Shown here in pieces: positions 11,819-52,356 of a stretch of DNA of 64,000 bases (the first letter of the stretch is position 1; the number at the start of each line of letters is the position of its first letter). The position numbers and the translations under genes were made by a program. The DNA is from Naegleria gruberi (lineage: Eukaryota). The stretch lies in assembly GCA_000004985.1 (NCBI GenBank), contig GG738930.1; one strand, written 5' to 3'. The notes under the pieces are model-generated. The model was given only the letters and a program-made list of their open reading frames with translations, was not told the origin of the DNA and did no database searches.

Positions 11819-14301
11819 TTATTCCAAAATGTTGAGAGTTGGTGTTTGAGCTTGTTGTTCACATAATCGAAGTAAATGTTGGGTTGGAAGGTCATTTGGG
11901 TTGACTTGTTGATATTCTCGAAATAGAGGAATGGCTTCTTCAAATTTACCTTCAAACAGAAGAGAGCAACCTTGGTTGTAAACTCCCCATTTTAAATATC
12001 TTTCCTTCTTATTGAAATGTGAATGTAAATCTTTGGTCGAGTTAAGTAAATGAGTAGAGATTGGAAACTTACCATCATCAGTTTCTTGTTTCATTTCAAT
12101 TGAATCTCCCAATTCATATAATAAACAATCTTTTGTCAATGAATTTGACATAGAAACACTTCCAATTTCCCAATTTTCTTGGTTGAAATCATCTAGAGAG
12201 GAAAAGAAATAATCCTCCCTTAATTCTCTTCTATCCAGGAATCTAGTCTCACACCTAGTGTGGCAATATTGCTTGATGTGCTGTGTGATAATGATTGGAA
12301 CTTTGAGTTTCTTGCCAAATCTTATTATTTGATCCAAATTATGTCTCGTGCTTGAAAAAATTGTAAAGTGCTTAATGTCTTTAGTTCCAATATTTCCACA
12401 AAATGTTTTTTGAGCACAAATAGCAAATCTGAAATTAATCAATTCACAAATTTCCTCCCTCAATAGTCCACTTTCTCTCCACTTGTTTTCTTTCACGTTG
12501 GTTAACTTTTCTTGTAAAAGTTGAGCGCTGGCAACTGCTTTTTCTTCGTGATTGTTCTGGTTAATAGTAGTATTATAAGCAATAGTTAAAATATCATTCT
12601 CAAAGTTGACCAAATGGCCAGATGTAGTCCTAATCACTGTGTCCACTTGGCTAAATAAATCTCCCAACAATGAAACTAGATGAGTTGGGTTTCCTTCTAA
12701 GGATAACAACCATTCATTCAATCCTTCAATGTACATTTGATTGATACTAATCTTTCTTGGTTCCAAATAGAGAGAAAATTTGCATTTCAATTTAGATGAT
12801 TTTTTCTTACTGTCCAAAATATTAGATAATTTTGAAGCTTTCCCTCCTTCAAGTGAATTATCTTCAATGCTTGAAAATGGTTGACTTTTTTCCAATTCAA
12901 CAGAATCTGAAGTCATTGTTCTAGGTGAAAAGGAATCCAACGAAAGTCTAGTTGCAGTTTCTTGTTCTCCATTTNNNNNNNNNNNNNNNNNNNNNNNNNN
13001 NNNNNNNNNNNNNNNNNNNNNNNNNNNNNNNNNNNNNNNNNNNNNNNNNNNNNNNNNNNNNNNNNNNNNNNNNNNNNNNNNNNNNNNNNNNNNNNNNNNN
13101 NNNNNNNNNNNNNNNNNNNNNNNNNNNNNNNNNNNNNNNNNNNNNNNNNNNNNNNNNNNNNNNNNNNNNNNNNNNNNNNNNNNNNNNNNNNNNNNNNNNN
13201 NNNNNNNNNNNNNNNNNNNNNNNNNNNNNNNNNNNNNNNNNNNNNNNNNNNNNNNNNNNNNNNNNNNNNNNNNNNNNNNNNNNNNNNNNNNNNNNNNNNN
13301 NNNNNNNNNNNNNNNNNNNNNNNNNNNNNNNNNNNNNNNNNNNNNNNNNNNNNNNNNNNNNNNNNNNNNNNNNNNNNNNNNNNNNNNNNNNNNNNNNNNN
13401 NNNNNNNNNNNNNNNNNNNNNNNNNNNNNNNNNNNNNNNNNNNNNNNNNNNNNNNNNNNNNNNNNNNNNNNNNNNNNNNNNNNNNNNNNNNNNNNNNNNN
13501 NNNNNNNNNNNNNNNNNNNNNNNNNNNNNNNNNNNNNNNNNNNNNNNNNNNNNNNNNNNNNNNNNNNNNNNNNNNNNNNNNNNNNNNNNNNNNNNNNNNN
13601 NNNNNNNNNNNNNNNNNNNNNNNNNNNNNNNNNNNNNNNNNNNNNNNNNNNNNNNNNNNNNNNNNNNNNNNNNNNNNNNNNNNNNNNNNNNNNNNNNNNN
13701 NNNNNNNNNNNNNNNNNNNNNNNNNNNNNNNNNNNNNNNNNNNNNNNNNNNNNNNNNNNNNNNNNNNNNNNNNNNNNNNNNNNNNNNNNNNNNNNNNNNN
13801 NNNNNNNNNNNNNNNNNNNNNNNNNNNNNNNNNNNNNNNNNNNNNNNNNNNNNNNNNNNNNNNNNNNNNNNNNNNNNNNNNNNNNNNNNNNNNNNNNNNN
13901 NNNNNNNNNNNNNNNNNNNNNNNNNNNNNNNNNNNNNNNNNNNNNNNNNNNNNNNNNNNNNNNNNNNNNNNNNNNNNNNNNNNNNNNNNNNNNNNNNNNN
14001 NNNNNNNNNNNNNNNNNNNNNNNNNNNNNNNNNNNNNNNNNNNNNNNNNNNNNATAACAAACACACTCATTAATGTCAAACTCGAAATTACTATAAGCAT
14101 ACAATTTCTTATAGAAATTTGGCAATTGCTCGCCGATAAGAAGAAGACGGAAGAGTTTGTATCCGAATTATTGTATTTTCTATTCCAATCATTGTCTTCA
14201 TAACTAAATCTCCCATTAGAATAAATATCATGTTGAGGTAAATCAAAGGCAAGAGGTAAAACCTTACGAGAGGACGTTGATGATCGCCTTGTGAGTGGCA
14301 T
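11819..14301 (-). CDS. membrane protein with a cyclase-homology domain and a C-terminal TPR-like region; spans gap 12975-14053
   Basis: ATG at 14301. The N-terminal ORF runs into the gap with a hydrophobic stretch. The post-gap ORF contains FRFAICAQKTFCGNIGTKDIKHFTIFSSTRHNLDQIIRFGKKLKVPIIITQ. This aligns to the C-terminal half of class III cyclase catalytic domains (l.lRiGihsG.v..G.iG.....y.v.G..VN.AsR...........i.vs). A KWGVYNQGCSLLFEGKFEEAI helical-repeat tail follows. Frame continuity across the gap is unknowable. Confidence 0.5.
12975..14053. other. assembly gap (N run)
   Basis: 1079 n. Confidence 1.
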
Positions 14302-14545: not shown

Positions 14546-17500
14546 TTAAGCTTCTGTTTTTGAGGGAGAGATTGTTGGTGAAGGGTTGAGATTGTTGGTT
14601 GTTTCTGGTAAATTTTGTTGGGTGTTGGATGTTTGATTGAGTTTGAGAACAGTCAATTCGTCAACTGAACTTGATTCTAATAGATTTGTTGGAGATTGGG
14701 AGTCTATCTTGAGTTCTTGAATTTCTTGAACTGTTGGCAATGGGTTTGCATGATGTTTGTCCTTTAACAGGTATGTTTTCATTTCACCCTTTCCTTTGAC
14801 ATAGATTGATTCTCTTTCTTCAAATTCATATCCCAAATCGAATACTCTTTCATAGGTTGCTCTTGAAATTTGAATTCTTCCTGGAACACCTGTTGATTCC
14901 ATTCGAGAGGCTGTGTTGATTGTATCACCCCACAAATCGTAAGCAAACTTTTTAGTTCCAATAACACCTCCAACACATGGTCCTGTGTGCATTCCAATTC
15001 TCAAATTCACTTCCTTTCCAAATTTAATATTGAAATCTCTCAAGAATGAATAAACTGAGATTGCAAACTTTAACATTCTCTCAGGGTGGTCAGATGATTT
15101 TGAAGAGTGAGTTCCTGAAACTGCAAAGTAAGCATCTCCAATAGTTTTGATCTTGTCAATCAAATATTTCTCAGTCAACTTGTCAAATTCATTCACAATT
15201 GTGTTCAACATCATCACCAATTGATCTGCTTCCATTCCTGAAGACATTTTGGTGAAACCAACCATATCAGAAAAGAAAATCGTAACATCTGGGAACTTTT
15301 CTGCGATATAGGTTTCTCCTTGTTTCAATCTATTAGCAACTGGCAATGGCAAAATATTCAACAATAACTCTTCACTTTTCTTCTTTTCCTCACCTAGCAA
15401 CAATGAATGTTTCTTCAATTGAGTAACATCCTTCACAAAACAGGACAAGATTGGTTTACCAAGGTACTGACTGATAGAAATCGACACAAATGCAGGGAAA
15501 GTGGTCTTGTTCTTTCTCAATCCTGTCACTTCGAATGAATCTGCTGAAACACCTGTTTCCTCATTGCAAACTTTCATGGAATCAATAAGAACTGTAATCT
15601 TTTCCACATTCAATTCTGTAAATAGAGTTTCTAATCGAATTCCCAAAATCTCTTCCTTCTTATAACCAAACATATCTTCACTGGAAGGATTGAACATTAC
15701 AACCTCTCCCTTTGGATTACAGATAATGCTTCCATCTACACCACTATTCAAAATTGATCTTGTCATGTCCATATTTTCATCATCCACTTCAAGTCCAGAC
15801 ATGACTGCATTTCTTCTCTTTATCAATTTCTTCAATTTTTGAGCTGAGGATGGAACTCTATAGTTTAAAATATAGTCAATCATATCTGGTATCATGTCAA
15901 CAACATCTTTAGGAATATAATTCAACATTATTCTTAATGATTGAATTTCTCTAAAGAGATCCATCATCGCTAGATAGGAAAGCCAACCAAACACAAGAAC
16001 TGCTAATGAGCCCAGAATGGTTGAAATGATTGCCAAGTAATCTTCTGATTGTTTTGTATTCTGTACATATGTGCTTGTGAAATCGTAAATAAGCTGAACT
16101 GCAACCAGAGCTGGATAGTACAGATATGTAAAGTACTGATCAGTTTCGTATGATTTTGTGTAAAACCTTGCTTTTAAATCCTCATTAATCTCTGCTGCTA
16201 GATCTTGAAAAGAGTGAATCAACTTTTCTAAACCATAACATGAAACTCTTGTCTTCACCAAACTGTCTGGGAGAATATCCAAAGCCGGACCACTTGTGTA
16301 ATTAACCATTGAAGTATTTGAATCACACTTATAGGCAAGTAATTTGTCAATATCAGAATATTTTCCAAAAAGAGAATTGGAATAGCCCAACTCTGGAGCT
16401 CCTCTTACAGCATAAGACCAGGACATTGTAATATTCATTAATTGCTTTTGATTCCGCAAGTGTAACTCATCGGGAGTGTAATCTGACATATTTGATGCAA
16501 TAATCATCTCGGCCAACTTGAAATTCACAGAAGTTACTGAACTAAGAACGTAGTTTACAGAAGCAGCAGTTTTCATTGTAATAAACTGATTCTGTTTGTT
16601 GAGTTGGAATTCGTATATCTGAATAGGACTCACCAATGCTACTACAAAAAATGTGATTGCAGTGTATATGATAATCTTATTCTTTGGACTTAGTACAGTT
16701 TCTCCGTAATCTCCAGTTTTAGTAGATGTCAAAGTGTGATATAGCTTACCAACCTCATCCTTTTGAATCTTTCTAAAGATATGAAAAATGACCTGTCTTA
16801 TTTGAACAAAGTATTGACTCAACATGGATATATAGAACCCAACCAATACAAAATAGCATCCCAATAGAATTCCTGAACTCCATAAAAACACTTGTGAGAG
16901 GGTATCTGCTCTTTCCATGGAAAATGTCAAAAAGTATTGGCAAAACCCATCAAATGCATCGGTCATCGTCTCTCTATTGTACAGGAAGAACAAGACTGGG
17001 AAGTTTGTGGCAGTGTTATTCAATTGAACAGGATAAGAAAACTGACTGATAACTGTTGGAGCTTGAGCTGCAAACATTGCAATGAAATCCAACACTGACA
17101 CATTCATGGTTGTGTAAACCTGAGAGGATTCTCCAACTACCTGCTTGTTTGGAATTTTGTAAGTCCACTTTTGAGAGATGAAGTCATCTGTAATAGATGG
17201 AAAGAATGACTCTGTGGATGCACTCATCACATTCTTAACTAAATTTAAAACATAGTTCGCTTGCAGTGTTGCCAAATGCTGAACTGGTCCAGCAGTGGTT
17301 TCGTTCAAGTACCTGTATCTTGCTTGCAATGTTCTAACATGATTTGCCATAATGCTTGGAGCACCAGCTATTGAGCAAATCTTTTCCTCTAGTGCTGTTC
17401 TACTCGTAAACTCTGATGAAACAATCAAACTAAGAATCAACATGAATAGAATAATGAGAATGGAAATTACAATAAATGGAAGAAAAAGCATAAAGAATGA

Positions 17501-18076
17501 TTTCCTGCGCTCTGGCATGTTGATAGAATTTCTGTAGAATGCTTCCTCCCTCATAGTTTCTTCCATTCTTGCACTGATTGAATCCCAATTATCCACAACT
17601 TCATCGAATGAAACAGCATTCTTCATGGCAGCATTGGACTTACTGTGCTTCATTAATTGAGATGTAGAAGTAGCATAGGGAAGAACTCTATTTTCTGGTT
17701 GTTTTTTCTTAGTTGACTTTGCTTTCTCTTCCTCAATTTGGTTGGCTTCTTCATAAAGTTCTGCAGCCATTTCCAGTTCAAATTTGAAAGTTTCTAAGAA
17801 GTGAGCATATGCTCTCATTAAAGTCTTGTTATTCATATTGGAACTCATACTATTCTTGTATGCATTTTCACAATAATGTGTAAGATTGTGAGCTTGTCTG
17901 TTGATGTCCTCTAATTTTGTCTCTGAAGGATTTTCGCTTGAAAGCTCTTTAAAGAAATCCTGATGTAGATTAATGATCTTTGCTTGTCTCTTCTCAAGTT
18001 TTTCCAATATTTTTTGAAGTTCAAAACTCAAGGCATCACCATCTTGTGATTGCACTTCAATTTCCTTACTTCTCAA
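14546..18076 (-). CDS. membrane-anchored PAS-domain adenylate/guanylate cyclase (class III catalytic domain); the true 5' end lies in gap 18117-19306
   Basis: The canonical catalytic motifs are present: VTIFFSDMVGFT, KTIGDAYFAVSG, RIGMHTGPCVGGVIG and WGDTINTASRMES. A PAS-like segment (ICNPKGEVVMFNPSSEDMFGYKKEEILG) precedes the catalytic domain and a hydrophobic multi-TM block lies upstream. The track's first codon at 18076 is TTG. Hand translation upstream (..RHSPSFVQLFHFYLRSKEIEV) stays open to the gap edge and matches the paralogue's N-terminus, so the real ATG is inside the gap. Confidence 0.8.
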   Translation of the reverse strand: MRSKEIEVQSQDGDALSFELQKILEKLEKRQAKIINLHQDFFKELSSENPSETKLEDINRQAHNLTHYCENAYKNSMSSNMNNKTLMRAYAHFLETFKFELEMAAELYEEANQIEEEKAKSTKKKQPENRVLPYATSTSQLMKHSKSNAAMKNAVSFDEVVDNWDSISARMEETMREEAFYRNSINMPERRKSFFMLFLPFIVISILIILFMLILSLIVSSEFTSRTALEEKICSIAGAPSIMANHVRTLQARYRYLNETTAGPVQHLATLQANYVLNLVKNVMSASTESFFPSITDDFISQKWTYKIPNKQVVGESSQVYTTMNVSVLDFIAMFAAQAPTVISQFSYPVQLNNTATNFPVLFFLYNRETMTDAFDGFCQYFLTFSMERADTLSQVFLWSSGILLGCYFVLVGFYISMLSQYFVQIRQVIFHIFRKIQKDEVGKLYHTLTSTKTGDYGETVLSPKNKIIIYTAITFFVVALVSPIQIYEFQLNKQNQFITMKTAASVNYVLSSVTSVNFKLAEMIIASNMSDYTPDELHLRNQKQLMNITMSWSYAVRGAPELGYSNSLFGKYSDIDKLLAYKCDSNTSMVNYTSGPALDILPDSLVKTRVSCYGLEKLIHSFQDLAAEINEDLKARFYTKSYETDQYFTYLYYPALVAVQLIYDFTSTYVQNTKQSEDYLAIISTILGSLAVLVFGWLSYLAMMDLFREIQSLRIMLNYIPKDVVDMIPDMIDYILNYRVPSSAQKLKKLIKRRNAVMSGLEVDDENMDMTRSILNSGVDGSIICNPKGEVVMFNPSSEDMFGYKKEEILGIRLETLFTELNVEKITVLIDSMKVCNEETGVSADSFEVTGLRKNKTTFPAFVSISISQYLGKPILSCFVKDVTQLKKHSLLLGEEKKKSEELLLNILPLPVANRLKQGETYIAEKFPDVTIFFSDMVGFTKMSSGMEADQLVMMLNTIVNEFDKLTEKYLIDKIKTIGDAYFAVSGTHSSKSSDHPERMLKFAISVYSFLRDFNIKFGKEVNLRIGMHTGPCVGGVIGTKKFAYDLWGDTINTASRMESTGVPGRIQISRATYERVFDLGYEFEERESIYVKGKGEMKTYLLKDKHHANPLPTVQEIQELKIDSQSPTNLLESSSVDELTVLKLNQTSNTQQNLPETTNNLNPSPTISPSKTEA

Positions 18077-20529
18077 ATAGAAATGGAATAGTTGGACGAA
18101 ACTTGGACTATGTCTCNNNNNNNNNNNNNNNNNNNNNNNNNNNNNNNNNNNNNNNNNNNNNNNNNNNNNNNNNNNNNNNNNNNNNNNNNNNNNNNNNNNN
18201 NNNNNNNNNNNNNNNNNNNNNNNNNNNNNNNNNNNNNNNNNNNNNNNNNNNNNNNNNNNNNNNNNNNNNNNNNNNNNNNNNNNNNNNNNNNNNNNNNNNN
18301 NNNNNNNNNNNNNNNNNNNNNNNNNNNNNNNNNNNNNNNNNNNNNNNNNNNNNNNNNNNNNNNNNNNNNNNNNNNNNNNNNNNNNNNNNNNNNNNNNNNN
18401 NNNNNNNNNNNNNNNNNNNNNNNNNNNNNNNNNNNNNNNNNNNNNNNNNNNNNNNNNNNNNNNNNNNNNNNNNNNNNNNNNNNNNNNNNNNNNNNNNNNN
18501 NNNNNNNNNNNNNNNNNNNNNNNNNNNNNNNNNNNNNNNNNNNNNNNNNNNNNNNNNNNNNNNNNNNNNNNNNNNNNNNNNNNNNNNNNNNNNNNNNNNN
18601 NNNNNNNNNNNNNNNNNNNNNNNNNNNNNNNNNNNNNNNNNNNNNNNNNNNNNNNNNNNNNNNNNNNNNNNNNNNNNNNNNNNNNNNNNNNNNNNNNNNN
18701 NNNNNNNNNNNNNNNNNNNNNNNNNNNNNNNNNNNNNNNNNNNNNNNNNNNNNNNNNNNNNNNNNNNNNNNNNNNNNNNNNNNNNNNNNNNNNNNNNNNN
18801 NNNNNNNNNNNNNNNNNNNNNNNNNNNNNNNNNNNNNNNNNNNNNNNNNNNNNNNNNNNNNNNNNNNNNNNNNNNNNNNNNNNNNNNNNNNNNNNNNNNN
18901 NNNNNNNNNNNNNNNNNNNNNNNNNNNNNNNNNNNNNNNNNNNNNNNNNNNNNNNNNNNNNNNNNNNNNNNNNNNNNNNNNNNNNNNNNNNNNNNNNNNN
19001 NNNNNNNNNNNNNNNNNNNNNNNNNNNNNNNNNNNNNNNNNNNNNNNNNNNNNNNNNNNNNNNNNNNNNNNNNNNNNNNNNNNNNNNNNNNNNNNNNNNN
19101 NNNNNNNNNNNNNNNNNNNNNNNNNNNNNNNNNNNNNNNNNNNNNNNNNNNNNNNNNNNNNNNNNNNNNNNNNNNNNNNNNNNNNNNNNNNNNNNNNNNN
19201 NNNNNNNNNNNNNNNNNNNNNNNNNNNNNNNNNNNNNNNNNNNNNNNNNNNNNNNNNNNNNNNNNNNNNNNNNNNNNNNNNNNNNNNNNNNNNNNNNNNN
19301 NNNNNNCAGTCAGCTCTCTCCATAGAAGTATCCAAAAATGATCTACAAAACCAATCAAAAGCCTCAGACATTGTCTCTCTATTGTAGAGGAAGAAAAGAA
19401 CTGGAAAATTTGTTGAAGTGTCGTTCAGTTGGGCAGGAGAGCTCAATTGAGAAATTGCTCTACCAGCATGATTTTCAAACATGTTTAAAAATTCCAAAAC
19501 AGATACATTCATGGTAGAATAGAGTTGTGTAGATTCTCCTACAACTTGTTTGTTTGGAACCTTGTACAAAAACTTTTGGGCAATAAAATCTTCAGTAACA
19601 GCTGGGAAGAATGATGAGGAAGATGCACTCAATACATTATTAATCAATGTTGTAACATAGCTGGTCTGAACAGTAGCTAAGGCATGAGCGGTACTTGCTG
19701 AAGATTCATTCAAATATCTATACCTAGCTTGAATAGAACGAATGTGATTGGCCATAATGCTTGGAGCACCAGCTATTGAGCAAATCTTTTCTTCTAACAC
19801 TGTTCTACTGGTAAATTCTGACGAAAAGACCAGAGACATTGTTAATAAAATTAATAAAACAAGGAATGAAACAATCACAAACGGTAAAAATGTGAAATAA
19901 TAGGATTTTCTGTGTTCTGGAGTGTTGATTGAATTTCTATAGAAGGCTTCTTGTTTCATTGATTCTTCCATTCTTGCACTGATCGAATCCCAGTTATCTA
20001 CAACTTCATCGAATGATACTCCATGTTTCAGAGTGTCTGATTTCCTTCTTTTCATAAGTGATGACTCTTCTGAGGCACTGGTATAAGGAACTACTCTATT
20101 ACTTTTTGAATGAGACTGCTTGTTGGTTTTGGATTTCTCTTCCTCAATTTGATTAGCCTCCTCATATAATTCATTGGCCACTTCAATCTCAAATCTAAAT
20201 ATCTCCAAAAAGTATGCGTAAGCTCTCAACAGGGTCTTGTTGTTCATATTGGTATACATGCAATTCTTGTATGCATTTTCACAAAATATTATCAAATTAT
20301 TGGATTTTCTGTTAATCTTTTCAAGTTTGTCCTCAGAAGGATTTTCACTGGAAAGCTCTTTGAAAAATTCCTGGTGCAATGCCAGTATCTGAGATTGTTT
20401 CTTATCGAGTCTCTCTAATAATTTTTTAACTTCATAACTAACATTAGCATAATTCTCAGAGTTGGCTTCAATCTCTTTGCATCTCAAAAAGTAATGGAAA
20501 ACTTGAACGAAATTTGGGTTTTGTTTCAA
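18073..20529 (-). CDS. PAS-cyclase paralogue, N-terminal part (C-terminal catalytic part lost in gap 18117-19306)
   Basis: About 70% identical to the gene at 14546..18076 over the N-terminal coiled region, the TM block and the FPVLFFLYNRETM segment. The first codon reported at 20529 is TTG, and an in-frame TGA lies 6 codons upstream. The conserved N-terminal block therefore has no in-frame ATG. The annotated 3' end at 18073 is a TGA that actually lies inside the downstream paralogue's 5' coding extension, in a different frame. Confidence 0.6.
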   Translation of the reverse strand: MKQNPNFVQVFHYFLRCKEIEANSENYANVSYEVKKLLERLDKKQSQILALHQEFFKELSSENPSEDKLEKINRKSNNLIIFCENAYKNCMYTNMNNKTLLRAYAYFLEIFRFEIEVANELYEEANQIEEEKSKTNKQSHSKSNRVVPYTSASEESSLMKRRKSDTLKHGVSFDEVVDNWDSISARMEESMKQEAFYRNSINTPEHRKSYYFTFLPFVIVSFLVLLILLTMSLVFSSEFTSRTVLEEKICSIAGAPSIMANHIRSIQARYRYLNESSASTAHALATVQTSYVTTLINNVLSASSSSFFPAVTEDFIAQKFLYKVPNKQVVGESTQLYSTMNVSVLEFLNMFENHAGRAISQLSSPAQLNDTSTNFPVLFFLYNRETMSEAFDWFCRSFLDTSMERADXXXXXXXXXXXXXXXXXXXXXXXXXXXXXXXXXXXXXXXXXXXXXXXXXXXXXXXXXXXXXXXXXXXXXXXXXXXXXXXXXXXXXXXXXXXXXXXXXXXXXXXXXXXXXXXXXXXXXXXXXXXXXXXXXXXXXXXXXXXXXXXXXXXXXXXXXXXXXXXXXXXXXXXXXXXXXXXXXXXXXXXXXXXXXXXXXXXXXXXXXXXXXXXXXXXXXXXXXXXXXXXXXXXXXXXXXXXXXXXXXXXXXXXXXXXXXXXXXXXXXXXXXXXXXXXXXXXXXXXXXXXXXXXXXXXXXXXXXXXXXXXXXXXXXXXXXXXXXXXXXXXXXXXXXXXXXXXXXXXXXXXXXXXXXXXXXXXXXXXXXXXXXXXXXXXXXXXXXXXXXXXXXXXXXXXXXXXXXXDIVQVSSNYSISI
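18117..19306. other. assembly gap (N run)
   Basis: 1190 n. Confidence 1.
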
Positions 20530-22735: not shown

Positions 22736-23349
22736 NNNNNNNNNNNNNNNNNNNNNNNNNNNNNNNNNNNNNNNNNNNNNNNNNNNNNNNNNNNNNNNNN
22801 NNNNNNNNNNNNNNNNNNNNNNNNNNNNNNNNNNNNNNNNNNNNNNNNNNNNNNNNNNNNNNNNNNNNNNNNNNNNNNNNNNNNNNNNNNNNNNNNNNNN
22901 NNNNNNNNNNNNNNNNNNNNNNNNNNNNNNNNNNNNNNNNNNNNNNNNNNNNNNNNNNNNNNNNNNNNNNNNNNNNNNNNNNNNNNNNNNNNNNNNNNNN
23001 NNNNNNNNNNNNNNNNNNNNNNNNNNNNNNNNNNNNNNNNNNNNNNNNNNNNNNNNNNNNNNNNNNNNNNNNNNNNNNNNNNNNNNNNNNNNNNNNNNNN
23101 NNNNNNNNNNNNNNNNNNNNNNNNNNNNNNNNNNNNNNNNNNNNNNNNNNNNNNNNNNNNNNNNNNNNNNNNNNNNNNNNNNNNNNNNNNNNNNNNNNNN
23201 NNNNNNNNNNNNNNNNNNNNNNNNNNNNNNNNNNNNNNNNNNNNNNNNNNNNNNNNNNNNNNNNNNNNNNNNNNNNNNNNNNNNNNNNNNNNNNNNNNNN
23301 NNNNNNNNNNNNNNNNNNNNNNNNNNNNNNNNNNNNNNNNNNNNNNNNN
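22736..23349. other. assembly gap (N run)
   Basis: 614 n. Confidence 1.
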
Positions 23350-23453: not shown

Positions 23454-25046
23454 ATGAATCCATTTCTTAACCTTGATTCTCTGATATTGAATTTGACTGA
23501 TAATGATAATAATTTATTGGAAGACTTTCCAACAATTGGCAGTGTTACCAACACTGAAGAAAGTAATAGTTCAAGTCCACTAACAGAAGAATTATCTGAA
23601 ACCAATAGTGACAATCAAACATCTAATGAAGTTGACTTTCATCCCATCTCTTGTATTCGTTGTAGGCGTATGCACAAATATTGTTGTAAGTATTCCACAT
23701 AATATGTCAGAATTATGAGAATGTAACAAAACATGCAAATAGCCAAGAACAAACCTGCATGTGAAAGATGTACCTCGAGAGGTGTTGAATGCATCTATAG
23801 AGAACCTAAGAAAATCTTGAAAAGTAAGGAACATTCACCAACATCAACAAGCAAGAGAAAGAGGGATGCATCATCTGACCATCAAGTGGATGATAATCAT
23901 CCCTCACCCAAGCATGTGGTGGTCAATTTGGAAGAAGCACATGTCAATACAACAACCATTGAACATTATGCACCATGGTACTTTTCCATGCCTCTTCCTC
24001 TCAACTTTTTTGTTACGAGTGTGACTAGGAGGGAAAACATGCATTTAAATAGAGATTTATTTGAACAGTACTTTGGAAAATATCAAGCATGCGAATCACC
24101 AGAAAGTTACATGCTGGAAAGGAATGCCTTTTATTGGAGTGTGCAAGCTCTGTTATATCAATCATGTGGAAAGTTGAATTTGGCTGAGGAATGTGGTATG
24201 AAATCGAGAAATTTAATTTCAAAAAGTTTCAATCCAAGTTGTATTATAGTTTCGTATACATATCTAAATTTAGGACTCTTCGAAACGGGAAGAGGAAATG
24301 TAGAAATTTCAAATTTTGATTTGCACTGTTGCAAATTTGGAATGCAAGCCAACATTTCAAATGGAGAGTTGAAGAATGAGAATTTGGCAAGGACTGTTTC
24401 ATTTGTTGAGCAATTTTCTTTGGGTGAGATGGATGTGTTGCGCCTTGCAAGTCGACTACCTTTCATCTTTGAGTTTATTTGTGGAAATGCATTAGCATCT
24501 CAATTGGTGAATTTATTGCAACAAAATATTACAAAAGAAAATTGTCATGATATTGTCAGTACAGGATCAGACATTGTAAAATTGTGTATTTCTAACATTC
24601 GAGCCAGAATAACCAAAGATTCCAACAATGATGAAAACTCTTCACAAAATGGATTTGAATTCACTCAAACATTATTAATTGAAGGATTGAAAATGGGAGT
24701 TTTTATTTCTTCCCTTAGTAGAACTGACCTCATAGAAGAATGTAGCTTGAAAATAACCTATCTGTGTGAAAGTGATGCTTTCAATCATTGTAGCTTGTTC
24801 ATGATTCCATTCATTGTAATGGCCACACGTGTTAACTTGCAAGTGGTGAAATCCATCTCCAATGGTTCAAGAATTAATGCTCCCATAGGAGTGGGCGAGC
24901 TTGGAAATCTGCAACCAATAGATTATTATGGAATTCTGCGAAGAAATCAAAGAGCTCTCCACTCTTTAAACTCTCGATTTTCAATCGTTTCGATTGTTCA
25001 TGGAAAATTGATGGCATCAATAGGTGAAATACTTGCAAACAAATAA
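23454..25046 (+). CDS. Zn(II)2Cys6 binuclear-cluster (Gal4-type) DNA-binding protein; exons 23454..23685 and 23743..25046
   Basis: Two ORFs join through a 57-nt GTAAGT..TAG intron at 23686..23742. Joined, they give C-IR-C-RRMHKY-C-SKNKPA-C-ER-C-TSRGVE-C. That is exactly the Gal4 spacing C-X2-C-X6-C-X6-C-X2-C-X6-C, including the conserved K-P before the fourth Cys. The intron falls between the third and fourth cysteines. Gap 22736-23349 lies upstream, so further 5' exons cannot be excluded. Confidence 0.6.
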
Positions 25047-25989: not shown

Positions 25990-26523
25990 ATGGCCACATC
26001 AGAGAAGAGTTTAATCCTAGCCTATCTGCTTTGGTTTCTATTCGGATTTTTTGGCTTTCATAGGTAAGTCCTTATTATCGACCTTTCTTCCACTTTCCTC
26101 CAGATTCTACTTGGATTCTCCAATCATGGGAATACTCTTCTTCTTCACAGGCGCTTTCTGTGGCGTAAGTACCTTCCAACCAACCCATAAATCCTCTAAC
26201 TCTCCTATCAGTTTGGTTGGCTAATTGACTTTTGTCTCATTCCTCATCTCATCCACCAATCCAATTCGAAACACACAATTTCCACAACAACAACAATTTT
26301 AAATTCAAATCCAACAAATTTTAATAATCAAAATCCAAATGTTGTAAATAATCAAATTGACAACAGCAATCAAAATAATTTTGTTCAACCACCTTCGTTT
26401 AATATAAAGGCAGTTCAGCCAATGATGATGTCGATGGAACAGCAACCTGCGTATGTGCAGGCAGGTGTTGTGGGGTATGATTTACAGCAACTACCACCTC
26501 CTGCTTATTCATTTCAACAATAA
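25990..26523 (+). CDS. TM2-domain protein (148 aa) with an Asn/Gln-rich tail; exons 25990..26063, 26104..26164 and 26212..26523
   Basis: Not in the ORF track. By hand: MATSEKSLILAYLLWFLFGFFGFH-R (40-nt intron 26064..26103, GTAAGT..CAG), then FYLDSPIMGILFFFTGAFCG (47-nt intron 26165..26211, GTAAGT..CAG), then FGWLIDFCLIP and a low-complexity tail to TAA at 26521-26523. The first intron sits at the identical position and phase (CAT AG|A) as in the divergent paralogue at 25270..25512. Confidence 0.7.
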
Positions 26524-26684
26524 GTTTAATAAAAATCTATTCGAAAAAAGTTTAGTTTCGAATTGGATTCTTTTCCTTTTTACTAAATTTGATTCAAACA
26601 TACCAATTTTGGAGTCGTACTGGAACCTGTAATTAGATGTTGTGATAATTGGAAAGTTTTGAAATTGCGTTTCCAATAAAAAAA

Positions 26685-29195
26685 ATGCAACCTAGACTAT
26701 TCTTCATCTTTGTTTGTCTCATTCTCATTTTCGAATATTCAACTTGCAATGATATTAGAATCATCAAACCAATCAATCTTCAAAGTCAACTACAAGATAT
26801 CTCTGAACCATTCTCCATCATTTCTATTCGAAAGTATTACAGTTTAATCATTAATAATATAGCTCCAATCATGGGCAAAAGTGCAGAATTTCTTGACGAT
26901 TCAACAACTCTTGCTTCATTCTCCAACCTTTCCTGCGTTTTAAATATTCCATCCAATGGTGAATTAGCTCCATATGACAAGTCAATTGTCAACTCGATAG
27001 AAACGACAAGCTCTGTATGTTCATCTTTCATTTTGGTTGAAAGAGGAAACATGCAAATCGATGCAGCACATCATGCCTACCTAGTTTTGGGCGAAGAACC
27101 AACTTTAATGATTTCTCCGAATGATTTAATTCCACTTTGGTCAATTGTGTTGAAAAATGCAATGTTTTATGAGAATACTCGATTTGGAATTTGGAATAGG
27201 ACAATTGACCAGGTGTTTACATTATCACCGATATATTTTACACCTTATTCTGTTGAATATGTATTGGATAATCAATTAGAAAGTGAAAGAAATGAAATTG
27301 TGAAAGAATTGGAAGAGGAAATTTTGGTTGACTTGGAACTTTTTGAAATAGTTCATCGAATTCAATTAGCGGAAGGGAGAGTAATGGGATTTAGTTCGAT
27401 TAGAGTGGACGAAACATTTTTTTGTAATTCAACATTACATAATTCAACTTTTGTGGAAGAATATCACAATGCCTTATATAGAATTGATTTCTATTTATAT
27501 ATAATACTTAATCTAGGTTTAGTCAATTCAAGTGGTACAATTTCTGGTATTCAGGATATTGATTTGGTATTTAGTGATGGGAAATTTCGTAAATTTAATC
27601 CAAATTTCATATTAGAATCTATTCGAAACGTATTACAACGAGGAGGTTTCAACAATTATCTATCCTATTCTCATCCTAACTCTTCTTTCGACATGCACTA
27701 CTTTTCAAACTTACAAAAATCAAATATACGATCAGTTTCTGAACTCATGATTCATTCCTACTGTTTCAGTTATTACAATCACTATGCCTCTCAATACTAT
27801 TTCAGAGATAGCTCTCTATTTTACCTAATCTTCAATGATGTGATTTACTTTCTACTAGCATTCACTGGAATTGCCCTCCTCCTTCTCAACATCACAAGTT
27901 ATTCATTGGATTTCAATCTTTTCCTAAAGAAGAGAATTTTACTTCCCCTCATGGGACCTCCTACCTTAATATTGATAAGTTTGTGTTATACAGTTGCGAT
28001 CAGATCAAAGTTATCGGTTGCAACTTATTGGATTCTCATGATTATTATTGTGTTTCCAGTTCCAGTTTTGATAGGTTCATATATGGTAACACTTTTTAGG
28101 TTTTCCTATTTAAAGAATATGGATTTGTGGCAGAAAGTTGTTTTCAAACATCCCAAAATTCAAAGACATTTGGCATCTGTCAAATCCTCAGTGGTTATTT
28201 CATTAATTTTGACATTGGCAGGTTTCGTCATTTGTGCAGCTCCTGTCATTGGTGCTTCTCTCGCTGTTTTATATAGCAGTTTGAGTGTTCCACAGGAGAT
28301 GTTCATTATCATGTTTGCTGCTGAGATTTTGTACATGTTAATTCTTGCAGTAATTTTCTTTACTGTTGATTTGAAGAATAATGGCGCCAAAATTATTAGA
28401 CGAAAGGGAATAGGATACTTTTTCTTCTTTGATGATCCGTTTTATTATAGAATTGACTTGTTAATTATGATGGTTATGATGTTGTTGATTATTCCAATAA
28501 TTGTTGGTTCTTTGAATGATACACTTTCGTATTTTATTGTTCGAAAGGTATTCTCATTGATTTTCTTCATGATGTTTTATTCGATAATTGGTGGAACTGT
28601 TACAATATTTTATTGGATTGGCAAAGTGAAACGATTATTATTTAGGAATAAGGAAGAAGAACCATTAGTTACACAATTAGAAAGTTTGTTGGAAGACGAA
28701 ACTTTCAGAGAAATATTCAAATCTTATTCAAAGAATGAATTTTCAATGGAGAATATTCTTCTATATGAGGAATTGGAAAGATTGAGAAAACAAAGGAAAT
28801 GTACACTGCAAGATTTGAAAAATTTATTCGAAACCTTTCTTTCAGCAACAGCAGTTCACGAAGTCAATTTTCCATCAGGAATTAAAAAGAGTTATCAAGA
28901 AATTATGGACTCTTACAAGGACGACATTTCAGATAATAGTGAAGGCAGTAATCTTTCAAAATTTGTTTCGAATTTAGCAAACCTAAACCTTCAGGATCAA
29001 TTAAAACACCAAACCAAAAAGGAAAATTCAAGAATTGAGCAAGTTTTCGAACTACTTAGACCTGATCTACTGAAAAACATGTTAGACACCTTTTCTCGAT
29101 TAGAAACCACTCCAGAATTTATCAATTGGAAGAAAATGAAAGAAATTCAAGTTTGTGAACTTGGAGAAGAAAAATCAAAGGAAGAAAATGTTTAA
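26685..29195 (+). CDS. 7-TM receptor-like protein with a large N-terminal ectodomain and a C-terminal RGS domain
   Basis: The track start at 26649 is TTG. The first ATG at 26685 begins a signal peptide (MQPRLFFIFVCLILIFEYSTC). Seven hydrophobic helices lie between about 27840 and 28620. The C-terminal FREIFKSYSKNEFSMENILLYEELERLRK..LFETFLSATAVHEVNFPS matches the RGS-domain consensus (F..FL.sEFSeENl.FW.a.e.fk....lf..yi...a..evNl). Confidence 0.65.
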   Translation: MQPRLFFIFVCLILIFEYSTCNDIRIIKPINLQSQLQDISEPFSIISIRKYYSLIINNIAPIMGKSAEFLDDSTTLASFSNLSCVLNIPSNGELAPYDKSIVNSIETTSSVCSSFILVERGNMQIDAAHHAYLVLGEEPTLMISPNDLIPLWSIVLKNAMFYENTRFGIWNRTIDQVFTLSPIYFTPYSVEYVLDNQLESERNEIVKELEEEILVDLELFEIVHRIQLAEGRVMGFSSIRVDETFFCNSTLHNSTFVEEYHNALYRIDFYLYIILNLGLVNSSGTISGIQDIDLVFSDGKFRKFNPNFILESIRNVLQRGGFNNYLSYSHPNSSFDMHYFSNLQKSNIRSVSELMIHSYCFSYYNHYASQYYFRDSSLFYLIFNDVIYFLLAFTGIALLLLNITSYSLDFNLFLKKRILLPLMGPPTLILISLCYTVAIRSKLSVATYWILMIIIVFPVPVLIGSYMVTLFRFSYLKNMDLWQKVVFKHPKIQRHLASVKSSVVISLILTLAGFVICAAPVIGASLAVLYSSLSVPQEMFIIMFAAEILYMLILAVIFFTVDLKNNGAKIIRRKGIGYFFFFDDPFYYRIDLLIMMVMMLLIIPIIVGSLNDTLSYFIVRKVFSLIFFMMFYSIIGGTVTIFYWIGKVKRLLFRNKEEEPLVTQLESLLEDETFREIFKSYSKNEFSMENILLYEELERLRKQRKCTLQDLKNLFETFLSATAVHEVNFPSGIKKSYQEIMDSYKDDISDNSEGSNLSKFVSNLANLNLQDQLKHQTKKENSRIEQVFELLRPDLLKNMLDTFSRLETTPEFINWKKMKEIQVCELGEEKSKEENV

Positions 29196-42741: not shown

Positions 42742-43505
42742 NNNNNNNNNNNNNNNNNNNNNNNNNNNNNNNNNNNNNNNNNNNNNNNNNNNNNNNNNNN
42801 NNNNNNNNNNNNNNNNNNNNNNNNNNNNNNNNNNNNNNNNNNNNNNNNNNNNNNNNNNNNNNNNNNNNNNNNNNNNNNNNNNNNNNNNNNNNNNNNNNNN
42901 NNNNNNNNNNNNNNNNNNNNNNNNNNNNNNNNNNNNNNNNNNNNNNNNNNNNNNNNNNNNNNNNNNNNNNNNNNNNNNNNNNNNNNNNNNNNNNNNNNNN
43001 NNNNNNNNNNNNNNNNNNNNNNNNNNNNNNNNNNNNNNNNNNNNNNNNNNNNNNNNNNNNNNNNNNNNNNNNNNNNNNNNNNNNNNNNNNNNNNNNNNNN
43101 NNNNNNNNNNNNNNNNNNNNNNNNNNNNNNNNNNNNNNNNNNNNNNNNNNNNNNNNNNNNNNNNNNNNNNNNNNNNNNNNNNNNNNNNNNNNNNNNNNNN
43201 NNNNNNNNNNNNNNNNNNNNNNNNNNNNNNNNNNNNNNNNNNNNNNNNNNNNNNNNNNNNNNNNNNNNNNNNNNNNNNNNNNNNNNNNNNNNNNNNNNNN
43301 NNNNNNNNNNNNNNNNNNNNNNNNNNNNNNNNNNNNNNNNNNNNNNNNNNNNNNNNNNNNNNNNNNNNNNNNNNNNNNNNNNNNNNNNNNNNNNNNNNNN
43401 NNNNNNNNNNNNNNNNNNNNNNNNNNNNNNNNNNNNNNNNNNNNNNNNNNNNNNNNNNNNNNNNNNNNNNNNNNNNNNNNNNNNNNNNNNNNNNNNNNNN
43501 NNNNN
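42742..43505. other. assembly gap (N run)
   Basis: 764 n. Confidence 1.
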
Positions 43506-50400: not shown

Positions 50401-52356
50401 GGTTTTGACAATGGATTGAATATTGATCAATCAACTTTGTTGTTCGATAAGCAATTTACACCTGGTAGCTACATGTTCACTGCTGTTTTCAGCAAGTCTT
50501 CAAGATCTTCAAGTACTTCAGTCAAGGTAATTGTCACTAGTCAAACTAAGGCAACTTCAGTAAGAATTTACATTGATACTCCTTCAGGATCTGATGTTTC
50601 AGCTATTGATCCATCCAATGATTTGATCTTGCAAGCACAAAGCTTGGATCTTCTCTCCCCTCAAAGAGTATTCTCTTGGTCTTCCAGTGACTTTACCTTT
50701 GATTCTACTATTGATTTAACAAAGAAATATTTAACAATTCCAAAGAGTTTACTTGCTCCAGGTGCTTCATACTCTGTCTCTATTACTGTCACTGATGGTG
50801 TCAAGACTGGTCAAGCCAGTATTTCATTCATCGTTAATGCTCCACCATCCTTAGGTATTTTTGAAGTTTCTCCATCTACAGGTGTAGCTTTAGTTGATGA
50901 ATTCAAAGTTTCATGTGGTAATGGTTGGTCAGATTCTCAACTTCCTCTTTCATTCAAATTCGTGTTCAGACAAAAGGGAGAAGAAATTTGGAAGGTATTG
51001 AAAGAAAAGTCTGAAACAAGATCTTTCAGAACTTCCATGCCAACTGGTCAATTGGAAATCAAGGCTATTGTTTATGATGCTAAGGGCGCTTTCACTGAAA
51101 CCACTTCAAATATTAATGTCACTACTCCAGTTGATGTTAGTTCAGCTATTCAATCTTTGTCCGTGTTGACTACTTCTACCTTGACTCCTTCCTCTGCTTC
51201 ATCAGCTTTGAGTGTCATTTTGGCAGTTAAACCAACCACAGCTGAAGATAAACAAAAATTGGTGGCAGCTGGTTTGAAGATTGTTCAAGCATACTTTGCT
51301 CAAATGGATGCTGAACAAAATGTCACTTCCCAAACAGAAGCTTCAACAAGTTCATCCTTGTCTGTTATTTCCTCAGTCAGTACTTGTGTTGAAAATCTTC
51401 CAGACGAAACTGTTAGTTTGACCATTACCAAATTCAAAGCAATGATTGAAGGTGCTTACTTGCTTCTCAAACTTGCAAGTCAAGATATCAACTCAGCACT
51501 TGACAGCGCTGCTTCAATTCAAACTCACGTTTCCAAGAAGGTCACTTCAAGATCTGTACTTTTCACTAAAGACGAAGTCAAGAGCATTGATTCTATCAAG
51601 GATACATTACTTTCACTCCAATTGAAGAATGCAGTTCCTGATATGCCTGCAACAAGAACATTCGGATCTGATTCTTTCTCTTATGCAAGATTACTCAGTG
51701 TTTCTACATTGAGCAGCTTGAATGAAACCATCAATTCAGTTTCATCATTCAAACTCTCTGCAACATTCAACAGTTTGAGTCAAGTTTCAAGCTTGGATAA
51801 TGTCAAATTAGTTATGAAAGTTCAAACTCAAGCTAAGGCAGTTTCCAAACTAGTTACTTTCAGAGTAGAATCCAATGATGTAGATGTTGGTGTTTCATCC
51901 AATTCCAATACCACCTACATTGCTGAATTCAATATTGAAAAGAATCCATCAACTAGAAATATTAGAGAAACTAGAAATGTATGTTCAGTATTACAAAATG
52001 GTGTTTTGGTTGCAGCAAGTGGATGTACCATTTCTTCAACATCTGGTGGAATGTTCACCATTCAAGTTTCTTCATCTGGATCTTATGCCGTTGTCAGTGA
52101 AGAAGTTGTTGCTCCACAAGCTTCTCCAAAAACTAGCTCATCAAAGACAACCACCGTGATTACAACCAAATCAAACAATCTTGAATACCTTGCCTTCCTC
52201 GTTTTACTCGTTCCAGTAATTGCTGTCGTTGTTATCATTATTATTGTGGTTGTGTGCTGTCTCAGAAAGAAGAAGACTAAATACACGAAAGGACAACATG
52301 AAAGAAACTTTGAAGACAAGTCATTCATGGAATTGAATGAAATGAGAGAAATTTAA
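47447..52356 (+). CDS. type I membrane protein: signal peptide, EGF-like repeat array, long Ser/Thr-rich ectodomain, single C-terminal TM and short basic tail; spans gap 47892-48367
   Basis: ATG at 47447 with signal peptide (LLQASVGLIVATLCCMVAFEG). After the gap, my hand translation from 48370 is stop-free and already in the EGF frame (CNEKWLCIANETSTCFGKNSTDSSVCSGHGTCSAGVCKCSPGYTGGNCS..). It continues into ORF 48622..52356 with about 13 C.G.G.C.....C.C.G.(Y/F).G..C EGF units. A roughly 1000-aa S/T-rich region follows, then TM LAFLVLLVPVIAVVVIIIIVVVCCL and then RKKKTKY... Confidence 0.65.
47892..48367. other. assembly gap (N run)
   Basis: 476 n, plus a single n at 47872. Confidence 1.

What the first reader, a model, noticed from the sequence alone, without database searches (positions are those of the whole stretch)
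26685..29195. 7-TM receptor fused to an RGS domain
A single long ORF combines a signal peptide, a roughly 400-aa ectodomain, seven TM helices and a C-terminal RGS box (..EFSMENILLYEELERLRK..EVNFPS..). GPCR-RGS fusions are known from plants (the AtRGS1 type) and a few protists. They imply receptor-coupled GAP activity acting directly on Galpha. The ORF track mis-starts it at a TTG 36 nt upstream of the real signal-peptide ATG.
Basis: partly seen in the sequence, partly recalled or inferred. Interest (0 to 1): 0.5.

Follow-up and report, generated by a model that had tools for sequence, protein, structure and literature searches.

The report
Naegleria seven-helix receptor fused to RGS
This is an intact Naegleria gruberi gene for a cell-surface seven-helix receptor with a built-in G-protein "off-switch" (RGS) domain, an arrangement already described in plants, Trichomonas and Naegleria fowleri, so it is a real but ordinary member of a known class.

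Summary
Window 26685-29195 (+) is one uninterrupted 836-codon ORF. It is 100% identical to the deposited Naegleria gruberi protein NAEGRDRAFT_75880 (XP_002669200.1, UniProt D2W3A7, "predicted protein").

The protein has four parts:
- a signal peptide (aa 1-22);
- a 356-aa ectodomain carrying six N-glycosylation sequons;
- seven hydrophobic helices (aa 379-646), with 19 K/R in the cytosolic loops against 2 in the extracellular loops, which puts the C-terminus inside the cell;
- an RGS box (aa 661-825), starting about 15 residues after the seventh helix.

The RGS box passes Pfam's curated threshold (33.2 bits against 23.9). It keeps the RGS4 Galpha-contact residues (S85, E87, N88, N128, D163, R167 equivalents).

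The 7TM-RGS class is already published for Naegleria: 28 genes in N. fowleri, with GAP activity shown for three isolated RGS domains (Bosch et al. 2022). The gene is therefore a new, uncharacterised member of a known kind.

The ectodomain fold is unresolved. It shows only a weak resemblance to periplasmic solute-binding proteins.

The parts
26685..29195 (+). Complete single-exon CDS (836 aa plus TAA) of N. gruberi NAEGRDRAFT_75880 / XP_002669200.1 / D2W3A7
26649..26684 (+). In-frame TTG-initiated 5' extension reported by the bacterial-code ORF lister. It is not part of the protein: the deposited gene model starts at ATG 26685.
26685..26750 (+). Signal peptide, aa 1-22 (MQPRLFFIFVCLILIFEYSTCN). 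The cleavage site is inferred.
   Evidence: hydropathy; inference from sequence
26751..27818 (+). Ectodomain, aa 23-378. It is a mixed alpha/beta domain with 6 N-glycosylation sequons and conserved Cys84, Cys247 and Cys360. It has no Pfam family. Its fold resembles class-II solute-binding proteins only weakly.
27819..28622 (+). Seven-transmembrane domain, aa 379-646, with a GPCR fold. It belongs to a lineage-restricted sequence family.
28395..28460 (+). Most conserved stretch of the 7TM family: third cytosolic loop into TM6, aa 571-592 (IIRRKGIGYFFFFDDPFYYRIDL; family consensus IRxKGxxYFLFFDDPFxxRIDL)
28665..29159 (+). RGS domain, aa 661-825, containing the EFSMEN (685-690), EVN (726-728) and DTFSR (801-805) contact motifs
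28914..29039 (+). Low-complexity Ser/Asn-rich insert inside the RGS box, aa 744-785, between helices alpha6 and alpha7. It has low pLDDT and varies in length across the family. It explains why Pfam matches only profile positions 2-82 of 117.

Best explanation
The ORF encodes a type-I-oriented plasma-membrane protein of the 7TM-RGS ('receptor-GAP') class. An N-terminal glycosylated ectodomain faces outward and a GPCR-fold seven-helix bundle spans the membrane. A canonical RGS box hangs directly under the bundle, about 15 residues after TM7, in the cytosol.

The RGS box most probably binds the transition state of GTP-bound Galpha subunits and accelerates their GTP hydrolysis, keeping them off. 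N. gruberi has a very large Galpha family. An extracellular cue sensed by the ectodomain/7TM module would then change that GAP activity or the protein's location, and so release or restrain Galpha signalling. This is the model proposed for AtRGS1 and for the N. fowleri 7TM RGS proteins.

Shown here:
- the intact ORF and its identity with the deposited gene;
- the topology;
- the GPCR fold of the predicted model;
- RGS family membership and conservation of the Galpha-contact residues;
- near-obligatory co-occurrence of this 7TM domain with an RGS box, in a family found among named proteins only in Naegleria and Willaertia.

Inferred, not shown: GAP activity, the Galpha partner, ligand regulation, and surface localisation.
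For: ORF and identity.

Topology: seven hydrophobic segments, seven long helices in the AF2 model (pLDDT 75.5, pTM 0.68), and K+R of 19 inside against 2 outside, with sequons enriched in the ectodomain.

RGS:
- Pfam 33.2 bits, above the gathering cut-off of 23.9.
- The family RGS profile hits RGS17, RGS10, RGS18, GAIP and RGS4 at E 1e-10 to 1e-6.
- S687, E689, N690, N728, D801, T802 and R805 align with RGS4 S85, E87, N88, N128, D163, S164 and R167.
- E685, S687, E689, N690, N728, N798, D801, R805 and E811 are invariant in 19 family members.

Family:
- 32 hits among 1.84e9 representative proteins.
- The named ones are N. gruberi, N. lovaniensis and Willaertia magna, and N. fowleri members exist.
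- 31 of 32 have the E[FY]SxEN-type RGS motif just after TM7.

Precedent: isolated RGS domains of three N. fowleri 7TM RGS proteins accelerate GTP hydrolysis on Nf Galpha subunits. They bind the AlF4- state, and the switch-1 G-to-S mutation abolishes the effect (PMC9283941). AtRGS1 is a GAP for the self-activating AtGPA1 (PMC3386157).
Against: No biochemical or expression data exist for this protein.

The four N. fowleri proteins that were assayed are much larger (RGS fragments at aa 1036-1215 up to 2293-2459). I could not show that they belong to the same 7TM sequence family. The C-termini encoded by their primers do not match the N. fowleri members I retrieved.

The RGS box carries a 42-residue insert, and Pfam aligns only its first two thirds.

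Topology rests on hydropathy, the positive-inside rule and a predicted model. No dedicated topology predictor or experiment was used.
Confidence: 0.75

Rival explanations
1. It is a bona fide G-protein-coupled receptor that also activates Galpha (GEF). The fused RGS box then acts as a built-in terminator or kinetic scaffold. On this reading the protein both switches its G protein on and speeds its switching off, rather than being a pure receptor-GAP.
For: The 7TM bundle has the GPCR fold.

Fourteen of the 18 invariant or near-invariant positions of the 7TM family lie on the cytosolic face, where GPCRs dock G proteins (note). These are KRRLxLP in ICL1, RFxYLRNLY at the TM3 end/ICL2 (the position of the class-A DRY motif), and IRxKGxxYFLFFDDPFxxRIDL in ICL3/TM6.

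Bosch et al. found both slow- and fast-exchanging Galpha subunits in Naegleria, so exchange factors are expected to exist (PMC9283941).
Against: GEF activity has not been demonstrated for any 7TM-RGS protein in the papers read here.

The RGS box starts about 15 residues after TM7. It would therefore occupy or crowd the G-protein docking site.

The conserved cytosolic face could equally be an intramolecular contact surface for the RGS box.
Confidence: 0.12
2. The RGS box is a non-catalytic Galpha-binding or scaffolding module, like the RGS-homology domains of RhoGEFs, GRKs, axin or sorting nexins. The protein would then be an effector or anchor rather than a GAP.
For: The Pfam alignment covers only profile positions 2-82 of 117.

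A 42-aa insert interrupts the domain.

Naegleria also has an RGS-RhoGEF effector (PMC9283941).
Against: The closest solved relatives are canonical GAP-competent RGS proteins (RGS17, RGS10, RGS18, GAIP, RGS4). EhRGS-RhoGEF is much weaker at E 2.8e-4.

All key RGS4 Galpha-contact residues, including the catalytic-site Asn128 equivalent, are present and invariant in the family.

The insert lies in a surface loop between alpha6 and alpha7, and its length varies among relatives.
Confidence: 0.06
3. The 7TM module is only a membrane anchor, and the ectodomain has an adhesion or structural role. No ligand regulates the RGS box, which would act as a constitutive membrane-tethered GAP.
For: No recognisable ligand-binding domain or pocket was found.

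Ectodomains are highly variable across the family.

de Mendoza et al. note that RGS domains are fused to at least one TM segment in most lineages, consistent with simple membrane targeting (PMC3971589).
Against: A single TM segment would be enough for anchoring. Yet the full seven-helix GPCR fold, with conserved intra-bundle and cytosolic motifs, is maintained across Naegleria and Willaertia.

At least one relative carries a Pfam-significant NMT1/THI5 solute-binding domain as its ectodomain, which points to small-molecule sensing in the family.
Confidence: 0.07

Closest known systems
Naegleria fowleri 7TM RGS proteins (28 genes; Nf 7TM RGS1-4 studied; Bosch, Jeck & Siderovski 2022, PMC9283941)
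   Same: Same genus. Same architecture: extracellular N-terminus, 7TM, RGS at the C-terminus. The RGS domain is canonical. N. fowleri proteins with the same 7TM motifs (KRRLxxP, RFYYLRNLY, FDDPFxxRID, GGN) and RGS motifs exist: P0036 (FDP41_000658) and P0039.
   Different: The four assayed N. fowleri proteins are far larger (their RGS fragments end at residues 1215, 1419, 1678 and 2459) and are described with EGF repeats, lectin domains and GPS motifs. This protein is 836 aa and has none of these by Pfam. I could not verify that the assayed proteins share its 7TM family. The closest relative found outside N. gruberi is N. lovaniensis C9374_013995, at only 36% identity.
Arabidopsis AtRGS1 (prototype plant 7TM-RGS; PMC3386157)
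   Same: An N-terminal 7TM domain fused to a cytosolic C-terminal RGS box. The proposed role is the same: a receptor-type GAP for Galpha.
   Different: The 7TM domains show no detectable sequence homology. An exhaustive HMMER search with the ectodomain+7TM profile returned no plant protein among the named hits. AtRGS1 has no signal peptide or large ectodomain, and has a longer TM7-RGS linker (recombinant RGS fragment 284-459; the rest is my own knowledge). From memory, AtRGS1's RGS box has AGET where this protein has the canonical SMEN, so this box is closer to animal R4/RZ RGS domains.
Trichomonas vaginalis 7TM-RGS proteins (Bradford et al. 2013, as cited in PMC3971589 and PMC9283941)
   Same: 7TM-RGS architecture in an excavate protist. 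It is coupled to self-activating Galpha subunits.
   Different: No Trichomonas protein appeared among the named hits of the 7TM-profile search. The 7TM domains are therefore not demonstrably homologous. The primary paper could not be read.
Canonical animal RGS proteins (RGS17/RZ, RGS10, RGS18, GAIP, RGS4)
   Same: These are the best sequence matches to the RGS box. The Galpha-contact residues are conserved.
   Different: They are soluble or lipid-anchored proteins without a 7TM domain. They also lack the alpha6-alpha7 insert.
Class C GPCRs and other GPCRs with a large ligand-binding ectodomain

Membership tests
RGS domain (Pfam PF00615) | Profile match above Pfam's curated gathering score | tested here: met
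   33.2 bits against 23.9 on the whole protein; 35.4 bits on the tail alone
RGS domain (Pfam PF00615) | All-helical (nine-helix) RGS box fold | tested here: inconclusive
RGS domain (GAP-competent subtype) | Conservation of the RGS4 Galpha-contact residues (S85, E87, N88, N128, D163, S164, R167) | tested here: met
   S687, E689, N690, N728, D801, T802 and R805. Six of these seven are invariant in 19 relatives and T802 is nearly invariant. Its length and match coordinates agree with PDB 1agr_E.
RGS domain (GAP-competent subtype) | Acceleration of Galpha GTP hydrolysis; binding to Galpha-GDP-AlF4- | not testable with these tools
   This needs biochemistry. It has been shown only for three isolated RGS domains from N. 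fowleri (PMC9283941).
7TM-RGS architectural class | Seven transmembrane helices N-terminal to the RGS box | tested here: met
7TM-RGS architectural class | RGS box on the cytosolic side (odd number of TM segments after an extracellular N-terminus) | tested here: met
   Signal peptide plus 7 TM segments. K+R is 19 in the cytosolic loops and 2 in the extracellular loops. Six sequons lie in the ectodomain. This is computational only.
AtRGS1-type (plant) 7TM-RGS orthologous family | 7TM domain homologous in sequence to the AtRGS1 7TM domain | tested here: not met
   A profile HMM of the ectodomain+7TM was run against 1.84e9 representative proteins and gave 32 hits. All named ones are Naegleria or Willaertia, and none is from a plant.
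AtRGS1-type (plant) 7TM-RGS orthologous family | Short extracellular N-terminus; C-terminal phospho-serine cluster that drives endocytosis | tested here: not met
   This protein has a 356-aa ectodomain after a signal peptide. Its tail after the RGS box is only about 11 residues. The AtRGS1 features are from my own knowledge.
Heterolobosean 7TM-RGS sequence family (defined here) | Motifs KRRLxLP (ICL1), RFxYLRNLY (ICL2), IRxKGxxYFLFFDDPFxxRIDL (ICL3/TM6), GG(T/N) (TM7), followed directly by E(F/Y)SxEN ... EVNxPS ... NxxDTxxRL | tested here: met
   This protein has KKRILLP, RFSYLKNMD, IRRKGIGYFFFFDDPFYYRIDL, GGT, EFSMEN, EVNFPS and NMLDTFSRL.
Adhesion-GPCR-like 7TM RGS (GAIN/GPS-containing; described for some N. 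fowleri members) | GPS/GAIN motif immediately before TM1; EGF or lectin repeats | tested here: not met
   No GPS, GAIN, EGF or lectin Pfam hit at E<=1 on the whole protein or on the ectodomain alone.
Established GPCR sequence classes (Pfam 7tm_1/2/3, Frizzled, Dicty_CAR, etc.) | Significant profile match of the 7TM region | tested here: not met
   No 7TM Pfam family at E<=1. A 23-sequence family profile found no GPCR among PDB sequences at E<=10. The similarity is at fold level only.
Periplasmic solute-binding protein fold, class II (NMT1/SsuA type), as ectodomain | Two alpha/beta lobes with significant structural or profile similarity to SBPs | tested here: inconclusive

The most novel reading that the evidence does not exclude
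The seven-helix domain defines a GPCR-fold receptor family of its own. Among named proteins it is confined to Naegleria and Willaertia, and it has no Pfam model and no sequence link to any known GPCR class. Its RGS box is an almost obligatory output module (31 of 32 representatives).

Its strongly conserved cytosolic face (KRRLxLP, RFxYLRNLY, FFDDPFxxRIDL) would be a dedicated docking or allosteric surface. That surface would couple ectodomain ligand binding, possibly through a degenerate solute-binding-protein-like sensor, directly to the RGS box placed where a G protein normally docks. This would be an independently evolved receptor-GAP switch rather than a relative of AtRGS1. It might have dual GEF/GAP behaviour or motif-driven (DPF/FxDxF) endocytic regulation.
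Probability: 0.2. Interest if true: 0.5.

Novelty: new member of a known kind. Interest (0 to 1): 0.25.

Why it matters
7TM-RGS proteins invert the textbook GPCR logic: the receptor carries the off-switch instead of the on-switch. They are central to the debate on whether ancestral eukaryotic G-protein signalling was GAP-controlled.

Naegleria has an unusually large Galpha and RGS repertoire, and one species is a lethal pathogen. A compact, single-exon, 836-aa member with a modest ectodomain could be a more tractable model for structure and ligand hunting than the 1200-2400-aa N. fowleri proteins studied so far.

What this analysis adds is modest:
- The 7TM module is a lineage-restricted sequence family with a GPCR fold and a highly conserved cytosolic face.
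- It is not detectably homologous to AtRGS1, which argues for independent fusion events or extreme divergence.

The gene and the class are otherwise already in the databases and the literature.

Tried and rejected
- Tandem paralogues: tblastn of the protein against the window found only the gene itself.
- GPS/GAIN, EGF, lectin, ANF_receptor or any 7TM Pfam family: none at E<=1.
- Weak Hemopexin (16 bits), DUF7605 and MurT (PDB 6gs2) hits all fall below threshold and lie on the FFDDPF motif or the RGS helices. I treated them as chance.
- The search for homologous proteins with the 7TM profile (A4) was unproductive. The word prefilter was swamped by hydrophobic words and returned only 2 proteins. 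The first single-sequence search also returned only 3. The exhaustive HMMER search was what revealed the family.
- Link to the four biochemically assayed N. fowleri proteins: I translated the cloning primers in Table S1. By my own translation, Nf 7TM RGS2/3 end in ...QVNLL*, RGS1 in ...NVVYLC* and RGS4 in ...VVYGI*. I compared these with N. fowleri relatives retrieved using P0016. There was no match: P0036 ends ...QSQMKI and P0039 ends ...VKSFEC. Shared 7TM-family membership with the assayed proteins remains unproven.
- Solute-binding-protein hypothesis for the ectodomain: hhalign between this protein's ectodomain group and the NMT1-like group gave no signal (probability 0.2%). It did link this group to the P0007/8/9/13/15/16 group (probability 85%, E 6e-6).
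- Foldseek against AFDB50 was not available.
- The contig look-up for paralogue P0002 found nothing on record.
- Anantharaman et al. 2011 and Bradford et al. 2013 are not held in the library.
- Pseudogene or gene-model artefact was rejected. The frame is intact, the protein is identical to the deposited model, and all family-invariant residues are present.
Full report
**Source and ORF.** The window is nuclear DNA of the heterolobosean amoeba Naegleria gruberi. The protein translated from 26685-29192 (+) is 100% identical over all 836 residues to a deposited 'predicted protein [Naegleria gruberi]'. That protein is NAEGRDRAFT_75880 / XP_002669200.1 / EFC36456.1 / UniProt D2W3A7.

The mechanical ORF list starts the frame at a TTG at 26649. 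The ATG at 26685 is preceded by an A-rich stretch and is the start of the deposited model. The gene is a single exon ending in TAA at 29193-29195.

By my own arithmetic, at about 33% G+C an 836-codon open frame is far beyond chance. No paralogue lies elsewhere in the window.

**Anatomy.** Kyte-Doolittle analysis finds an N-terminal hydrophobic signal-like segment (aa 1-22) and seven further hydrophobic segments between aa 379 and 646.

An AlphaFold2 model was built on a 32-sequence family alignment (mean pLDDT 75.5, pTM 0.68). It places seven long helices at 377-407, 420-438, 445-477, 499-530, 536-574, 588-610 and 614-653. A helical domain follows at 661-825, interrupted by a disordered stretch around 750-768.

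Basic residues follow the positive-inside rule for an N-out/C-in topology. The cytosolic loops and the proximal tail hold 2, 6, 5 and 6 K+R, against 2, 0 and 0 in the three extracellular loops. Six of the nine N-x-S/T sequons lie in the 356-aa ectodomain.

**RGS box.** Pfam RGS (PF00615) scores 33.2 bits on the whole protein and 35.4 bits on the tail, against a gathering cut-off of 23.9. Only profile positions 2-82 of 117 align. The reason is a 42-residue Ser/Asn-rich insert (aa 744-785) between helices alpha6 and alpha7, whose length varies among relatives.

A profile of 19 family RGS boxes hits RGS17 (2.6e-10), RGS10 (over almost its full length), RGS18, GAIP, RGS2 and RGS4 in the PDB. EhRGS-RhoGEF is far weaker.

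Aligned to RGS4, the Galpha-contact residues are all present:

| This protein | RGS4 |
|---|---|
| S687 | S85 |
| E689 | E87 |
| N690 | N88 |
| N728 | N128 |
| D801 | D163 |
| T802 | S164 |
| R805 | R167 |

The role of these residues is from my knowledge of the RGS4-Galpha-i1 structure (Tesmer et al. 1997).

E685, S687, E689, N690, N728, N798, D801, R805 and E811 are invariant across the family. This is the signature of a GAP-competent RGS domain rather than a divergent RGS-homology domain.

**Seven-helix domain.** It has no Pfam family at E<=1. A 23-sequence profile finds no GPCR among all PDB sequences.

An exhaustive HMMER search of 1.84 billion representative proteins, using a profile of the ectodomain plus 7TM, returned only 32 proteins at E<=1e-3. 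Every one that carries a name is from N. gruberi, N. lovaniensis or Willaertia magna, and the rest are unnamed ENA contigs. N. fowleri members were then retrieved directly: FDP41_000658 and an unnamed product.

Thirty-one of the 32 have an E[FY]SxEN-type RGS motif immediately after TM7, and 18 pass Pfam RGS at E<1e-3.

The most conserved positions of the 7TM domain lie almost entirely on the cytosolic face:
- KRRLxLP in loop 1;
- RFxYLRNLY after TM3;
- IRxKGxxYFLFFDDPFxxRIDL in loop 3/TM6;
- GG(T/N) in TM7.

Here the RGS box begins only about 15 residues after TM7. It must therefore sit directly beneath this conserved face.

**Ectodomain.** It has no Pfam match. Among the closest relatives it keeps three invariant cysteines and two N-S-T sequons.

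One family member (P0024) has a Pfam-significant NMT1/THI5 domain as its ectodomain (22.3 bits against 20.5).

Profile-profile comparison links this protein's ectodomain only to the group of P0007/8/9/13/15/16 (probability 85%, E 6e-6). It does not link it to the NMT1-like group.

The binding-protein idea is therefore a lead, not a result. The ligand-sensing part of the protein remains unidentified.

**Mechanism.** The best-supported reading is a receptor-type GAP. The cytosolic RGS box accelerates GTP hydrolysis on one or more of Naegleria's many Galpha subunits; 44 are quoted for N. gruberi in PMC8584482. The ectodomain/7TM module modulates that activity or the protein's location in response to an external cue.

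Direct precedent exists in the same genus. Bosch, Jeck and Siderovski (PMC9283941) report 28 7TM RGS genes in N. fowleri. They show that isolated RGS domains of three of them are selective GAPs for Nf Galpha2, 3, 5 and 7. These domains bind the AlF4- state and are blocked by the switch-1 G-to-S mutation.

AtRGS1 is the plant prototype (PMC3386157). de Mendoza et al. record 7TM-RGS architectures in many bikonts and some opisthokonts (PMC3971589).

GAP activity, the partner Galpha, ligand control and surface location are all inferred for the present protein. The rivals cannot be excluded, but the residue conservation and the maintained GPCR fold make them less likely. They are a dual GEF/GAP receptor, a non-catalytic RGS-homology role, and a mere membrane anchor.

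**Comparison and novelty.** In function and architecture this is a 7TM-RGS protein. It is not a demonstrable member of the AtRGS1 family, for three reasons:
- the 7TM domains share no detectable sequence similarity;
- it has a signal peptide and a large ectodomain;
- its RGS box looks more like animal R4/RZ boxes.

It also differs from the N. fowleri proteins highlighted in the literature, because it is small and lacks GPS, EGF and lectin modules. I could not prove that those assayed proteins share its 7TM family.

The gene is already deposited, as an unnamed predicted protein with a precomputed RGS hit, and the class is already published for Naegleria. I rate it a new, uncharacterised member of a known kind, of modest interest.

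The only mildly new points are these:
- the 7TM module is a GPCR-fold family without a Pfam model, found among named proteins only in Naegleria and Willaertia;
- it is almost invariably coupled to an RGS box;
- it has a strikingly conserved cytosolic face, including an FDDPF motif that formally matches AP-2 appendage-binding motifs (note; untested).

Noticed in passing
window 7222-7473, 12975-14053, 18117-19306, 22736-23349, 33500-34191, 39634-40449, 42742-43505, 47892-48367, 62886-62935: Runs of N (assembly gaps). They cause the apparent very low G+C dips in the composition profile and interrupt several neighbouring gene models.
   Followed up: partly
window 14546-17848 (-) and 18073-20259 (-): Two adjacent paralogous genes with near-identical N-termini. 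The first encodes a 1100-aa PAS + adenylate/guanylate cyclase protein (Guanylate_cyc 202 bits, PAS_9 58 bits). The second is broken by an N-run. This fits the large cyclase expansion reported for Naegleria.
   Followed up: partly
window 48622-52356 (+), possibly continuing from 47447-48583 (+): A 1244-aa ORF with EGF-like repeats and a REJ domain (144.7 bits), ending in a single TM helix and a short basic tail. It is a type-I surface protein, not a 7TM-RGS. The upstream ORF carries a signal peptide and is separated from it by an N-run, so the two may be one gene.
   Followed up: partly
window 23733-25046 (+) and 26200-26514 (+): The upstream neighbour begins with a Cys-rich CERCTSRGVECIY motif that gives a sub-threshold fungal Zn2Cys6 hit (17.8 bits against 21). 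A Q/N-rich open frame ends at 26514, only 170 bp before the 7TM-RGS start codon. It may be the 3' exon of that gene.
   Followed up: no
window 54773-56743 (-), 7029-9968 (+), 34389-35657 (+): Housekeeping neighbours: a full-length Hsp70 (872 bits), a class-V aminotransferase domain protein (979 aa), and a Mem_trans (auxin-efflux-carrier-like) membrane protein.
   Followed up: no
paralogues P0002 (NAEGRDRAFT_52786, 586 aa) and P0003 (NAEGRDRAFT_71107, 716 aa), elsewhere in the N. gruberi genome: The deposited models look incomplete. P0002 lacks TM1-TM5 (the alignment jumps from the juxtamembrane CFCYYN motif straight to TM6). P0003 lacks the signal peptide and the last third of the RGS box. These are probably gene-model or assembly errors rather than real truncations. 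A contig look-up for P0002 found nothing.
   Followed up: partly
family member P0024 (758 aa, source not looked up), residues 73-145: Its ectodomain gives a Pfam-significant NMT1/THI5-like (class-II solute-binding protein) hit. At least some members of this 7TM-RGS family therefore appear to use a bacterial-type binding-protein fold as their sensor.
   Followed up: partly
window 28428-28442 (aa 582-586, FDDPF): This family-invariant cytosolic motif formally matches the AP-2 alpha-appendage motifs DPF and FxDxF. It is probably structural, because it lies 3 residues before TM6. It is noted because AtRGS1 signals through endocytosis (note).
   Followed up: no
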